Shown piece after piece: positions 9,001-12,000 of a DNA stretch of 54,025 nucleotides. How positions within the stretch are numbered: position 1 is the stretch's first letter; the number at the start of each line of letters is the position of its first letter. The stretch is from IMG/VR virus record IMGVR_UViG_2526164690_000030; one strand, 5' to 3'. The position numbers are program-made. The DNA comes from a virus. Taxonomy: Duplodnaviria; Heunggongvirae; Uroviricota; Caudoviricetes.

Positions 9001-12000
9001 TGCCATCATGCAGAAACAGAGTTATTGGGAGAAACAGAGACAAAAAGCCATGCAAAAATTGGCTGACCCGGCCTGGCGAGAGGAACAAAGGGCAAAGCGC
9101 CTTCAACAAGCTCAACGCCAGCAGCAGCGAGCGAGAGAAAAAGCCGCATCGCCTGAATATCGGCAAAAGAAAATTGAAAAAGCAAAACAATATGAACAGC
9201 GGAGAAAAGATAAATCTGTATCCGCTCCGCCCAAAAAAACACGCACGTCACGCGGCCTGAAGGGCAGATCACTCACAGCCGATGAACGCCGGATACAGAC
9301 CGCTATCGGTACTCTCCCCTGCATTGCCTGCCATATTCACGGGCAACATAGCCCAGTGGTATCCCTGCACCATATCTTCGGGAGAACGGCAGAGAACGCG
9401 CATAAATATGTCCTCCCTTTGTGTAAATGGCACCACCAGTACGCAGCGCCAGCCGAGGTCCGAGACCAATATCCCTGGCTGGTCCCTGTTCATGCTGATG
9501 GAAAAATAGGCGGAAAAGCAGATTTCATGCGGCACAATGCCGATGAAATGACGTTGTATCTGATGGCGATTGAATTGATAAATTAGTTTTCTAACATTTT
9601 AAGTTGAATTGAAAAACACTCCGATGTACATTCACTACCGATTGGCACACCGGTCAACTTTTTGAGACAAACTATTTAGTTTTTCGTATTATTGCCGCCG
9701 CCATACCTATGGCGGTGCAATATAGGTGGCTGAAAAGCCCCCGTTGACTCACGGTGTTCCAGCCTTTATTGCGCCGCCACCAGACCGTGGAACAGTCGAT
9801 GGCGGCTCCGAAAGCAAGGAGTCACTACACTATGAACAACTACAGTCTTTCCCCATCACTCGTCGTCCACCACTCACGCGATAATCTGCATTCTTTACTC
9901 GCGCTGGGGGTGTCAAAATGACCGTTCGCTACCTCAACTTTCAAATCCAGAACATCACTGGCGGTTGCTATGACTGGTTTGTCACTCTCGGAAAAGAAGT
10001 GATCACCGGGAAGCTGGATGAAGTGAAGGCTAAAGCAATGGCCTACGCCTGCAAGCAAGCCAGGAAGAAATCCACCAAAGCATAAAAATACAGACTGTTG
10101 CGCCCTGGCATTATCGTGGGGTATATTTCTACGGCACCTTAGAAAAACGGGTGCCGGGATTGGAACCCCGGATAATGTCAAAGGCGACACAGACGCCGAA
10201 AGCGTCTTTTTTGTGTCATGCCATCGCACAGCCATACGTAGCGTTTAGCTCAGAGATCAATGGTAGTGCTGGCTGGGCTGCCGAAAGGCAGGCCGGTTCC
10301 CTTTGACGCCGGTAGTTCCAACCCAGTCAGTGCTACCGCCATTGAGATTGGAACCTCACGCGGTAGCTCCTTAACTTAGTCAAAGGAGGCTGCCAATATG
10401 GCTACTATCCCCACCCCAACTCATTCTGAATTTATCTGGCGTTTCTATTCCTGCCAAAAACACCTCTATATCTGCGTCATGGCTGCAACCGAAGCAGAAG
10501 CGCGCTCATACCTTCCCGAAGAACCCTGCATTTTTGCTGCTCGCTTCACTCTTGATGCGATGGAGATCCTCAATTACTGGAATCTGCCGATGAACTGCGT
10601 GGAGGTGCACTGATGAATCTGTCCATCTCTCAAAAAGCGACAATGACCAGCATTGAGATCGCGGAACTGGTAGGTAAGCGCCCTGATAACGTTAAACGCA
10701 CCATTGAACACCTGGCGGAACGGGGGGTAATATCTTTTCCTCAAATTGAGGAAAAGCCCACCGCAGGCCGCCCGGCGAGCTATTACGTCTTCGAAGGCGA
10801 GCAAGGCAAGCGCGATAGTATTGTCGTCGTCGCACAGCTCTCTCCCGAATTTACCGCCCGGCTGGTGGACCGCTGGCGCGAACTGGAGAATGCCCGGGTA
10901 CAGTTAAAATCAAAAGCCGAAATCCTGGCTGAAATGGCGCAAATGCATCTTGAGCATGAACGCCGGATCAACGCCGTTAATGCCCAGGTAGCCGAAGTAT
11001 CGGCACAAGTGTCCAAAGTCGCTGAAACCGTCGAGCAAATCAAGAAAGGCAATATGCCGGAAGGCTACATTGGCTACCGCCAGCTGGCGGCGAAATGTGG
11101 CCTGACTGAAGCCAAATGCCGCAACCTTGTCAACGCTTACCGGATTCCCACCGATACGCATGAGTTTTTAACTCCAGATGGTTTGCTTGCGAGACGCTCC
11201 ATTGTGGCCCTGGCCCCCTTCCGGAAAGCCTTTAAGCAGGTGATGTCGGAGGCAGAACCACGCAATAAACGCTGGTATCATCCAAAGATGGGGATGTTTC
11301 AGGCAATCCACCATCCTGTGCCTGAAAGTCCAAAGGCAAACCTGTCGTTGCATACCGCCAGAGAGAGGATTAAAACAGGGTATGCAATCGTATGCCGTCG
11401 AGCATCTTGGCCTGAAGGTGTATGGGTATGGCCCGAAGGTGGATCACGAAAGCACTGGCGCACTATCCGGGATGGGAAAATCCATGCGATTGATTTAGCT
11501 CCAGAGGATGTTGTTGCTACGGACTGGATTGTTAGTTAATTACTGTTGCCCCGGCCTGTCCGGGGCTTTAACTACTAAATAACCGGATTCTCCGCACGAT
11601 GAAGAAAATAGATTTCACTTACTCTGCTGCCACAATCCAGCGACGTTTCCGTCTCATAAGGGAAGTGGAACTATCAAAAAACTGGTATCAAATTCTACTG
11701 GATGAAGAGTTTTCACTGATGGTTATAGCAGAAAAATTGGCTATGCCGAATGACCGGCACAAGGTCATAGCCAGCCTGGATCTGGTGACAAACAGATACT
11801 GGGAATCCGAGGAACTACTTGAAGTTGGCTTGATACGCGAGATGATAGAACAGGCTGTTCCCCTCCACTTACAGCAACCATAATTGAAAGGTCTTAACGA
11901 TAGTCTGCCACGAATAGTTACTTTCACTGCCTAAAGTTATTTAATTGCATTACAAAGTGTAAATTAGTAACATTAGAATCTCACACAGCACTATAACTAT

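What the first reader, a model, noticed from the sequence alone, without database searches (positions are those of the whole stretch)
10229..10400. c4-like structured RNA with self-complementary elements upstream of a coupled icd-like/ant pair
A 76-nt region folds into a 15-bp stem whose pairing needs three G-U wobbles, so it is only valid as RNA from the plus strand. The internal sequence gccggtagttccaacc is a direct repeat of the downstream leader acgcggtagctcc and is complementary to ctaccgcc...ttggaacc just 3' of the stem. This is the logic of the P1 immI c4 antisense RNA acting on its own operon, followed by an icd-like ORF whose stop overlaps the ant start. The primary sequence differs from what I recall of P1, so this may be a divergent immunity specificity.
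Basis: partly seen in the sequence, partly recalled or inferred. Interest (0 to 1): 0.55.

Follow-up and report, generated by a model that had tools for sequence, protein, structure and literature searches.

The report
C4 antisense RNA immunity switch
This is an ordinary, clear member of the known phage P1-type C4 antisense RNA family, sitting in a D6-like phage-plasmid where it should block production of a cell-division inhibitor and an anti-repressor; its recognition sequences differ from those of P1, P7 and D6.

Summary
Window 10256-10343 (+) matches Rfam C4 antisense RNA (RF01695) at 77.1 bits against a threshold of 45, higher than P1's own c4 scores. The fold is specific to the plus strand: a 16-bp closing stem spans 10262-10337 (76 nt) and contains 3 G-U pairs. 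Covariation across relatives supports it.

The two recognition elements are b' (CCUUUGAC, 10300-10307) and a' (GUUCCAA, 10315-10321). They are perfectly complementary to a2 (10348-10354) and to b2 (10379-10386), which overlaps the icd ribosome-binding site.

In 83 related loci all six sites change together. This gives at least 9 specificity types, built from a and b variants that combine freely. The window's type differs from D6 by exactly as many mismatches as P1 differs from P7.

Downstream lie an Icd homologue (63% identical to P1 Icd) and a coupled Rha-type anti-repressor that is not homologous to P1 Ant1.

The module is already described for D6-like plasmid prophages and is near-identical in many public plasmids, so interest is low. 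Side findings are a weaker C4-like RNA at 9705-9784, an "ash family protein" annotation that lies on the C4 gene, and that Gifsy-1 "orf45" is a C4 gene.

The parts
10098..10127 (+). Inferred promoter: -35 TTGCGC (10098-10103), 18-nt spacer, -10 TATATT (10122-10127). It would start transcription near 10134.
   Evidence: It aligns column for column with the annotated P1 promoter P1c4/P51b. The consensus scan did not call it because only 3 of 6 bases match in the -35. Inferred, not shown.
10134..10212 (+). isrK / c4-a1b1 element: two hairpins plus an intrinsic terminator. It carries the a1 and b1 copies of the C4 target.
   Evidence: Rfam isrK RF01394 at 62.7 bits, threshold 50. c4-a1b1 RF03163 scores 22.4 bits, below its threshold. 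P1 and P7 match both families at the same place.
10160..10166 (+). a1 (TTGGAAC), in the loop of the second isrK hairpin.
   Evidence: Exact complement of a'. It changes together with a' in 36 of 37 unique relatives.
10177..10184 (+). b1 (GTCAAAGG).
   Evidence: Exact complement of b'. It changes together with b'.
10191..10213 (+). Intrinsic terminator (AGACGC-CGAAA-GCGUCU followed by a U tract) between a1/b1 and C4.
   Evidence: Terminator scan. It is the 3' hairpin of the isrK model.
10256..10343 (+). C4 antisense RNA gene. The predicted mature RNA is about 10262-10340 (79 nt), by alignment to the 77-nt P1 C4.
   Evidence: RF01695 at 77.1 bits, E = 2e-13. Fold z = -5.0. Pairing holds in 97.7% of cells, against 35-55% when partners are slid, and 16 of 22 pairs show compensatory changes. 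P1 C4 ends come from the GenBank annotation.
10300..10307 (+). b' recognition element (CCUUUGAC) in the loop of hairpin 2.
10315..10321 (+). a' recognition element (GUUCCAA) in the single-stranded joint before the 3' strand of the closing stem.
10348..10354 (+). a2 target (UUGGAAC), presented in the loop of a small hairpin GAG-AUUGGAAC-CUC.
   Evidence: 7 of 7 paired with a' in all 37 unique relatives whose sites were read in register.
10362..10394 (+). Leader hairpin. Its 3' arm holds the Shine-Dalgarno sequence, and its loop and arm hold b2.
   Evidence: Predicted fold of 10344-10400, -17.0 kcal/mol. Predicted only.
10379..10386 (+). b2 target (GUCAAAGG), overlapping the icd Shine-Dalgarno sequence AAGGAGG (10383-10389).
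   Evidence: 8 of 8 paired with b' in all 37 unique relatives whose sites were read in register. Same position as the annotated P1 b2.
10398..10613 (+). icd-like gene (71 aa).
   Evidence: NF033153 at 49.4 bits. 63% identity to P1 Icd, E = 6e-28. phrog_1426, E = 3.7e-41.
10613..11539 (+). Anti-repressor-family gene (308 aa, Rha-type N-terminal domain). Its start overlaps the icd stop.
   Evidence: PF09669 at 29.9 bits. phrog_63 'anti-repressor Ant', E = 2.9e-65. No significant similarity to P1 Ant1.
9705..9784 (+). Upstream, weaker C4-like RNA with its own putative targets (UGGAACA 9788-9794; GAGUCA 9819-9824 in the Shine-Dalgarno region) and two small coupled ORFs (9832-9921, 9918-10085). It may be a separate tier of the same region.
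   Evidence: RF01695 at 40.2 bits, below the threshold of 45, local E = 3.2e-6. Fold z = -4.6. Conserved in D6-like relatives with mostly structure-compatible changes.

Best explanation
This is the C4 antisense-RNA control module of an immI-type operon in a D6-like phage-plasmid.

Transcription starts near 10134. Most transcripts probably stop at the isrK-type terminator (10191-10213), giving a short RNA that carries a1 and b1. Read-through transcripts contain C4, which is probably cut out as a stable RNA of about 79 nt; in P1 this cut is made by RNase P.

C4 exposes b' (hairpin loop) and a' (single-stranded joint). These pair with a2 and b2 in the leader of the same operon, on the same molecule or on any incoming genome of the same specificity. 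The b'/b2 duplex covers the icd ribosome-binding site, so icd is not translated. The anti-repressor gene starts on the icd stop codon. In P1, its transcription also depends on icd translation, through Rho-dependent polarity. The anti-repressor is therefore not made either, and the prophage stays repressed.

Specificity is set by 15 nucleotides (7 in a, 8 in b). The window's allele (GUUCCAA / CCUUUGAC) should not act on D6, P1 or P7 targets.

Shown here: family membership, structure, covariation, six-site complementarity, co-variation of sites between alleles, gene content and gene overlap.

Inferred from P1 and Gifsy-1 work: processing, action in trans, polarity, the anti-repressor's target, and the decoy role of the a1/b1 RNA.
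For: Family and structure: Rfam C4 at 77.1 bits, above P1's own 68.8. Plus-strand-only stability. 16 of 22 helix pairs carry compensatory changes, with 97.7% of cells paired against 35-55% in slid controls.

Target sites: a'/a2 pair 7 of 7 and b'/b2 pair 8 of 8, with b2 overlapping the Shine-Dalgarno sequence, exactly as in the annotated P1 sites. In all 37 unique upstream regions whose sites were read in register, a':a2 and b':b2 stay fully paired while the sequences change (six a'/b' combinations in that set; nine in all once L081, P1 and P7 are read by eye or from annotation); a1/b1 follow in 36 of 37.

Specificity: the window C4 against D6 targets gives 5 Watson-Crick + 1 G-U + 1 mismatch at a, and 6 + 2 mismatches at b. 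These are the same counts as P1 against P7. Duplex energy drops from -7.3/-9.8 to -0.8/-3.7 kcal/mol.

Genes: Icd homologue and coupled anti-repressor-family gene.

Prior description and experiment: the same module is described in D6-like plasmids (PMC6799933) and annotated in D6. Experimental support for a1:a' pairing comes from Gifsy-1. The published mutants G28A and G31A lie in a1, and C162U and C159U lie in a' of a C4 gene scoring 69 bits.
Against: There are no expression, processing or immunity data for this allele. The promoter is inferred only by alignment with P1, and the consensus scan did not call it. No P1-type C1 operator is present in the window or in D6, so the link to the master repressor is unknown. 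The anti-repressor is not homologous to P1 Ant1/2, so its target is unproven. By homology with D6, the full element should carry a second complete module next to repL, so this one could be partly redundant.
Confidence: 0.9

Rival explanations
1. The region encodes a small protein, the 39-aa 'ash family protein' that NCBI's pipeline annotates at 10260-10379, and the RNA structure is incidental.
For: The ORF matches Pfam Phage_ASH PF10554 at 32.2 bits, threshold 26. It is annotated in near-identical plasmids. In Gifsy-1 the equivalent ORF ('orf45') gave a tagged protein and is coupled to anrP (PMC4825925).
Against: The ORF in this frame is only 14 aa in P1 and L081, 31 aa in P7, and 47-48 aa in others. 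Every window-versus-D6 difference inside it changes an amino acid and lies in an RNA pairing site. There is no Shine-Dalgarno sequence before ATG 10260. The helices show compensatory changes and need G-U pairs. Here the ORF ends before icd and is not coupled to anything.
Confidence: 0.03
2. The structure acts only on its own transcript, as a leader or processing element that sets icd-ant expression, without giving immunity in trans.
For: C4, a1/b1 and a2/b2 all lie on one transcript. The whole-leader fold keeps the C4 domain intact next to a hairpin that sequesters the Shine-Dalgarno sequence. Gifsy-1 data were interpreted as alternative structures within one molecule.
Against: P1 and P7 C4 act in trans and define heteroimmunity (established knowledge: Citron and Schuster 1990, 1992; the P1 record annotation). 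Discrete a and b variants found in all four combinations among near-identical backbones are what selection for trans specificity predicts. A purely cis element would not need them.
Confidence: 0.05
3. The module is a decaying duplicate, and the working immI is the P1-like module next to repL, which lies outside the window.
For: D6 has a second full a1b1-C4-icd-ant module at 19986-21170 beside repL, the position of immI in P1. The window covers only D6 coordinates 32380-76705.
Against: All six sites are perfectly matched and co-vary across alleles. icd and ant are intact. The C4 score is higher than for P1. The region is 99.9% conserved in more than 20 plasmids.
Confidence: 0.02

Closest known systems
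c4 antisense RNA of the immI operon of phages P1 and P7 (Rfam RF01695)
   Same: The three-helix fold is the same. a' and b' sit in the same structural positions. a1/b1 lie upstream and a2/b2 downstream, with b2 on the icd ribosome-binding site. An icd homologue follows, then a translationally coupled anti-repressor gene. An intrinsic terminator lies between a1/b1 and C4.
   Different: The a'/b' and target sequences are different (GUUCCAA/CCUUUGAC versus P1 CUGUCAA/UCACUAAC). The anti-repressor is Rha-type, not an Ant1/Ant2 homologue. No P1-type C1 operator is present. The module lies next to ref, not next to kilA-repL. The icd/ant overlap is 1 base (TGATG) instead of 4 (ATGA).
Module II (ref-proximal c4-icd-ant) of phage D6 and D6-like plasmid prophages such as pYU39_89
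   Same: Same locus, 91% identical over 10100-11560 to D6 and 98-99.9% identical to many plasmids. Same gene order, from ref to the pmgF-like gene. The literature already calls it an ImmI-related region with c4, icd and an anti-repressor (PMC6799933).
   Different: Compared with D6 itself, a' differs at 2 positions and b' at 2, with matching changes at a1, a2, b1 and b2. The predicted specificity is therefore different. In this window a class 1 integron/Tn21-like transposon sits just upstream of ref.
Gifsy-1 isrK-orf45-anrP locus of Salmonella (IsrK sRNA, RF01394)
   Same: Gifsy-1 has an isrK element carrying a1/b1, then a C4 gene (69 bits), then a2, then b2 on the ribosome-binding site of an anti-repressor gene. 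Short terminated and long read-through isoforms and an ~80-nt processed species are documented there.
   Different: Gifsy-1 has no icd. The ORF overlapping C4 ('orf45') is itself coupled to anrP. The published model does not mention C4 and describes IsrK as an activator. Treating it as an anti-C4 decoy is my inference.
sar antisense RNA of phage P22 immI
   Same: It is a small RNA that blocks translation of an anti-repressor (ant) to keep lysogeny (review PMC12197685).
   Different: sar is a true cis-antisense transcript from the opposite strand. C4 is transcribed in the same direction as its target and pairs through two short loop elements. The two share no sequence or structural relation.

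Membership tests
C4 antisense RNA (Rfam RF01695) | Covariance-model score at or above the gathering threshold (45 bits) | tested here: met
   77.1 bits, E = 2e-13, full-length match to model positions 1-87. P1 scores 68.8 and P7 69.6.
C4 antisense RNA (Rfam RF01695) | Long closing stem enclosing two hairpins, supported by covariation | tested here: met
   Fold z = -5.0. 19 of 25 RNAalifold pairs are compensated. 97.7% of cells paired against 35-55% when slid; no shuffle of 500 reached the observed value.
C4 antisense RNA (Rfam RF01695) | Exposed a' and b' complementary to a2/b2 in the downstream leader, with b2 overlapping the ribosome-binding site of the first ORF | tested here: met
   7 of 7 and 8 of 8 paired. 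b2 (10379-10386) overlaps the Shine-Dalgarno sequence at 10383-10389.
C4 antisense RNA (Rfam RF01695) | Recognition elements and targets change together between heteroimmune relatives | tested here: met
   Nine a'/b' types among 83 loci with matched targets. Window-versus-D6 mismatch counts equal P1-versus-P7.
C4 antisense RNA (Rfam RF01695) | Stable RNA of about 77 nt, processed from the operon's own transcript (by RNase P), acting in trans | not testable with these tools
   This needs a northern blot or RNA-seq and a trans-repression assay. The predicted mature RNA is 10262-10340.
P1-type immI operon (c4-icd-ant1/2) | icd homologue immediately downstream of C4 | tested here: met
   NF033153 at 49.4 bits. 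63% identity to P1 Icd.
P1-type immI operon (c4-icd-ant1/2) | Anti-repressor gene translationally coupled to icd | tested here: met
   The stop TGA (10611-10613) shares base 10613 with the ATG (10613-10615). Coupling itself is inferred.
P1-type immI operon (c4-icd-ant1/2) | Anti-repressor homologous to P1 Ant1/Ant2 | tested here: not met
   BLASTP E = 0.28. The protein is instead Rha-type: PF09669 and phrog_63.
P1-type immI operon (c4-icd-ant1/2) | C1 operator at the upstream promoter | tested here: inconclusive
   The P1 operator consensus is absent at up to 3 mismatches from the window and from all of D6. The D6-type operator is unknown, and a search for repeated words gave nothing significant.
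isrK (RF01394) / c4-a1b1 (RF03163) | Covariance-model score above threshold, and presence of a1/b1 | tested here: met
   isrK at 62.7 bits, threshold 50. a1 and b1 are exact. c4-a1b1 reaches only 22.4 bits against a threshold of 46.7, so membership holds for isrK but not formally for RF03163.
Phage_ASH protein family (PF10554) | A conserved protein-coding ORF | tested here: not met
   The HMM score passes (32.2 against 26). However, the ORF length varies from 14 to 48 aa among C4 relatives, and all window-versus-D6 changes alter amino acids. The match most likely reflects the conserved nucleotide sequence of the C4 gene.

The most novel reading that the evidence does not exclude
The module may be a three-RNA switch with a modular address code.

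(i) The short terminated isrK-like RNA carrying a1/b1 would act as an anti-antisense decoy that titrates C4 and turns icd-ant on. The Gifsy-1 IsrK genetics suggest this once 'orf45' is recognised as a C4 gene.

(ii) The a and b elements would be independently exchangeable specificity digits. All four combinations of two a and two b variants occur on near-identical backbones. This would let co-resident or competing phage-plasmids, and the two or three C4 modules within one element, stay insulated from each other.

(iii) The weaker C4-like RNA at 9705-9784 would control its own pair of coupled mini-ORFs, forming a second tier.
Probability: 0.35. Interest if true: 0.5.

Novelty: already known. 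Interest (0 to 1): 0.22.

Why it matters
For genome annotation, this locus should be labelled as a C4 antisense RNA gene with its isrK/a1b1 partner, not as an 'ash family protein'.

Biologically, the allele table shows that D6-like and P1-like phage-plasmids, which are common carriers of resistance genes (this one holds a class 1 integron), come in several predicted immI specificities. These are built from interchangeable 7-nt and 8-nt elements. They should determine which elements can superinfect or co-reside, and the prediction is directly testable with allele swaps.

The finding itself does not open a new question. The mechanism has been a textbook case since 1990.

Tried and rejected
**P1 C1 operator.** The consensus ATTGCTCTAATAAATTT, at up to 3 mismatches, gave no hits in the window or in D6.

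**De novo operator search.** I looked for 16-mers from the two upstream intergenic regions that recur in the window. Nothing exceeded chance.

**Second icd/ant copy in the window.** None found by tblastn or self-blastn. In D6 the second module lies outside the part of the genome this window covers.

**Extra C4 targets.** The other a/b word pair, at 21891 and 22022, is inside a coding ORF with the words 131 nt apart, so I treat it as chance.

**Genome-collection scan.** Searching with Icd peptide patterns returned no confirmed relatives, probably a limit of the pattern method.

**Alternative leader pairing.** I tested whether the leader segment GCGGUAGC (10360-10367) pairs specifically with the 3' strand of the C4 stem. 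Complementarity of -9 to -12 kcal/mol exists in every lineage. But cognate pairs are not better than non-cognate ones, so specificity could not be shown.

**P1 literature.** The primary P1 papers and the D6 genome paper are not in the held library. P1 facts therefore rest on the GenBank annotation, reviews and my own knowledge.

**Published allele surveys.** I found no paper in the held library describing the a/b allele combinations or equating orf45 with C4. That is absence in this library, not proof of novelty.
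Full report
**What the window is**

The window aligns with Escherichia phage D6 (a P1-like plasmid prophage) from D6 coordinate 76705 down to 32380. Bases 10100-11560 are 91% identical to D6 and 99.9% identical to more than 20 E. coli and Salmonella plasmids of about 90 kb. The first 8870 bases are a class 1 integron/Tn21-like unit (sul1, qacE-delta-1, aadA1, intI1, a resolvase and a Tn3-family transposase). It is inserted about 140 bp upstream of ref. An IS10 copy sits at about 16270-17600.

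**Checking the observation**

The structure is real and strand-specific. The plus-strand RNA 10256-10343 folds to -46.5 kcal/mol (z = -5.0). The reverse complement reaches only -31.4 kcal/mol (z = -1.1). The closing stem pairs 10262-10277 with 10322-10337, which is 16 bp over exactly 76 nt with three G-U pairs. The icd-like ORF (10398-10613) and the next ORF (10613-11539) share base 10613 in TGATG.

**What it is**

- Rfam's covariance models place C4 antisense RNA (RF01695) at 10256-10343 with 77.1 bits against a threshold of 45. P1's and P7's own c4 genes score lower, at 68.8 and 69.6.
- Just upstream, 10134-10212 matches isrK (RF01394) at 62.7 bits, and weakly matches c4-a1b1 (RF03163) at 22.4 bits.
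- In P1 and P7 the same stretch matches both of those families, so they describe one element.

**Comparison with the annotated P1 sites**

The P1 GenBank record marks a1, b1, c4, a2 and b2. Reading the sequences side by side gives these equivalents in the window (coordinates):

| Site | Sequence | Window coordinates | Position |
|---|---|---|---|
| a1 | TTGGAAC | 10160-10166 | loop of the second isrK hairpin |
| b1 | GTCAAAGG | 10177-10184 | isrK element |
| b' | CCUUUGAC | 10300-10307 | loop of C4 hairpin 2 |
| a' | GUUCCAA | 10315-10321 | single-stranded joint in C4 |
| a2 | UUGGAAC | 10348-10354 | loop of a small leader hairpin |
| b2 | GUCAAAGG | 10379-10386 | overlaps the Shine-Dalgarno sequence AAGGAGG (10383-10389) of icd (ATG 10398) |

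An intrinsic terminator (10191-10213) separates a1/b1 from C4, as in P1. The 'ctaccgcc' it mentioned is the 3' strand of the stem itself.

**Evidence beyond one sequence**

I collected 80 viral contigs encoding Icd relatives and added P1, P7 and D6. This gave 40 distinct upstream regions.

Intramolecular structure:
- On eight divergent C4 variants, 97.7% of pair cells form standard pairs, against 35-55% when partners are slid.
- 16 of 22 pairs show changes on both sides.
- No shuffle out of 500 reaches the observed values.

Intermolecular sites:
- In all 37 distinct sequences whose sites were read in register, a':a2 is 7 of 7 and b':b2 is 8 of 8, although the sequences differ.
- a1 and b1 follow in 36 of 37. 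The exception is L036, where a1 is of the D6 type.
- Nine a'/b' combinations occur, six of them within that in-register set. Two a variants (GUUCCAA, GUCUCAA) and two b variants (CCUUUGAC, CCUUUUGC) are found in all four combinations on near-identical backbones.
- The window's combination is shared by 19 of the 83 loci.

**Specificity**

Against D6 targets the window's C4 has one G-U and one mismatch in a, and two mismatches in b. These are exactly the counts for P1 C4 on P7 targets. Duplex energy falls from -7.3/-9.8 to -0.8/-3.7 kcal/mol. The P1/P7 difference is the classic basis of their heteroimmunity (established knowledge; also reviews PMC6906374 and PMC12197685). The window is therefore predicted to be heteroimmune at immI to D6, P1 and P7. 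This is a sequence-level inference, not a measured phenotype.

**Genes under control**

- The 71-aa protein is an Icd homologue: NF033153 at 49.4 bits, and 63% identity to P1 Icd. P1 Icd was recently reported to block division by targeting FtsZ (PMC11897509).
- The 308-aa protein has a Rha-type N-terminal domain and matches phrog_63 'anti-repressor Ant'. It shows no significant similarity to P1 Ant1. Its role as an anti-repressor of the D6-type C1 is inferred from family and position only.
- No P1-type C1 operator occurs in the window or anywhere in D6. How the master repressor connects to this operon is unknown.

**How it most likely works**

The mechanism follows the P1 model. C4 is released from the leader of its own operon and pairs through a' and b' with a2 and b2. 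This occludes the icd ribosome-binding site and so prevents expression of the coupled anti-repressor, which keeps lysogeny stable and excludes incoming genomes of the same specificity.

The fold of the free leader already places the Shine-Dalgarno sequence in a hairpin, with b2 in its loop and a2 in a second loop. That would favour loop-loop initiation of pairing.

**The a1/b1 element and the Gifsy-1 work**

In Gifsy-1, isrK (79 bits) is followed directly by a C4 gene (69 bits), and then by a2, b2 and the anrP start codon. Counting from the isrK start gives these assignments:
- The published mutations G28A and G31A lie in a1 (UUGGCGU, nt 26-32).
- The compensatory C162U and C159U lie in a' (ACGCCAA, nt 158-164).
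- 'orf45' starts at the conserved AUGG of the C4 stem.
- The ~80-nt processed species STnc1160 corresponds to C4.

The paper does not mention C4. Its central result is that short IsrK supplied in trans activates anrP more than 100-fold, and a1 mutants do not. This fits a model in which the terminated a1/b1 RNA titrates C4. I offer this as an inference. By analogy, the 10134-10213 RNA here may be the natural antagonist of C4.

**Rival readings**

- *Protein gene.* NCBI's pipeline annotates a 39-aa 'ash family protein' at the position of 10260-10379 in near-identical plasmids, and the ORF passes the Pfam Phage_ASH threshold. But the ORF is 14 aa in P1 and L081 and varies up to 48 aa in others. 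All window-versus-D6 differences inside it change amino acids and lie in RNA pairing sites. I consider the protein reading very unlikely here.
- *Purely cis-acting leader.* This does not explain the discrete, recombining specificity variants.
- *Decaying duplicate.* Six-site perfection and high conservation argue against it.

**Other things seen**

*A weaker C4-like RNA.* It lies upstream at 9705-9784 (40.2 bits, below threshold; z = -4.6) and is identical in D6.
- It is followed by UGGAACA (9788-9794), which pairs with its UGUUCCA.
- GAGUCA lies in the Shine-Dalgarno region (9819-9824) and pairs with its loop UGACUC.
- A 29-aa ORF (9832-9921) is coupled by ATGA to a 55-aa ORF (9918-10085; phrog_7786).
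- In the divergent relatives L030, L031, L110 and L112, most stem changes keep or improve pairing, though one breaks a pair. The putative target islands stay conserved within diverged spacers.
- No co-variation of its targets is available, so its function is only suggested.

*A second module in D6.* D6 also carries a complete, P1-like a1b1-C4-icd-ant module beside repL. That region lies outside this window.

**Novelty and verdict**

The family, the mechanism and the presence of this module in D6-like plasmid prophages are all published (D6 annotation). The sequence is near-identical in many public plasmids. The finding is therefore a correct recognition of a known element. The allele diversity, the mis-annotation as 'ash', and the link between IsrK and C4 are useful side observations. 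I did not find them in the held literature, but they do not change the class of the finding.

Noticed in passing
window 9705-9784 (+), with 9788-9794, 9819-9824, ORFs 9832-9921 and 9918-10085: A second, weaker C4-like RNA (RF01695 at 40.2 bits, below threshold; fold z = -4.6) lies upstream. It has its own a2/b2-like sites at the ribosome-binding site of a 29-aa ORF, which is coupled by ATGA to a 55-aa ORF. The layout mirrors C4-icd-ant. It is identical in D6 and conserved in D6-like relatives, with mostly structure-compatible changes. A promoter-like site (9664-9692) sits just before it.
   Followed up: partly
window 10260-10379 (+); L084 2662-2781: NCBI's pipeline annotates an 'ash family protein' (Pfam Phage_ASH, 32.2 bits) that lies entirely on the C4 gene and a2. 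The ORF is not conserved in length (14-48 aa) among C4 relatives. The annotation, and possibly part of the Pfam family, probably reflects the conserved RNA gene rather than a protein.
   Followed up: partly
L120 (phage Gifsy-1) 34076-34316, minus strand: The Gifsy-1 isrK-orf45-anrP locus studied in PMC4825925 contains a C4 gene (69 bits) exactly where 'orf45' is. The paper's mutants G28A/G31A and C162U/C159U fall in a1 and a'. The ~80-nt STnc1160 species matches C4. The paper and a 2025 review treat IsrK and c4 as unrelated.
   Followed up: partly
window 1-8870 and about 16270-17600: A class 1 integron/Tn21-like unit (sul1 1282-2205, qacE-delta-1 2115-2459, aadA1 2626-3633, attI/aadA leader 3395-3473, intI1 3566-4576, resolvase 5308-5865, Tn3-family transposase 5872-8835) is inserted about 140 bp upstream of ref in the phage-plasmid backbone. 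An IS10 copy (RNA-OUT 17482-17551) interrupts the D6-like backbone.
   Followed up: partly
L085 (phage D6) 19986-21170, minus strand: D6 carries a second complete a1b1-C4-icd-ant module beside repL (C4 at 69.6 bits, c4-a1b1 at 55.9 bits). Its a' is identical to P1's, but its b' differs. Counting the weak upstream copy, D6-like elements hold three C4-type RNAs with mutually different recognition elements.
   Followed up: partly
L036 (IMG/VR contig), upstream of icd: This is a natural recombinant in which a1 is of the D6 type (TTGAGAC) while a', a2, b1, b' and b2 are of another type. It is the only case among 37 distinct sequences where a1 does not match a'. This suggests a1 is under weaker constraint than a2/b2.
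   Followed up: no
window 10360-10367 versus 10331-10338: The leader segment GCGGUAGC, between a2 and b2, is complementary to the 3' strand of the C4 closing stem. A comparable 7-9 bp complementarity exists in P1, Gifsy-1 and other lineages, hinting at an alternative pairing in the unprocessed transcript. A cross-lineage energy matrix showed no specificity.
   Followed up: partly
window 9669-9682: The palindrome AAACTA-TT-TAGTTT sits in the spacer of the promoter-like site in front of the upstream C4-like RNA. It is a possible protein-binding site, but no significant repeats of it were found elsewhere in the window.
   Followed up: no
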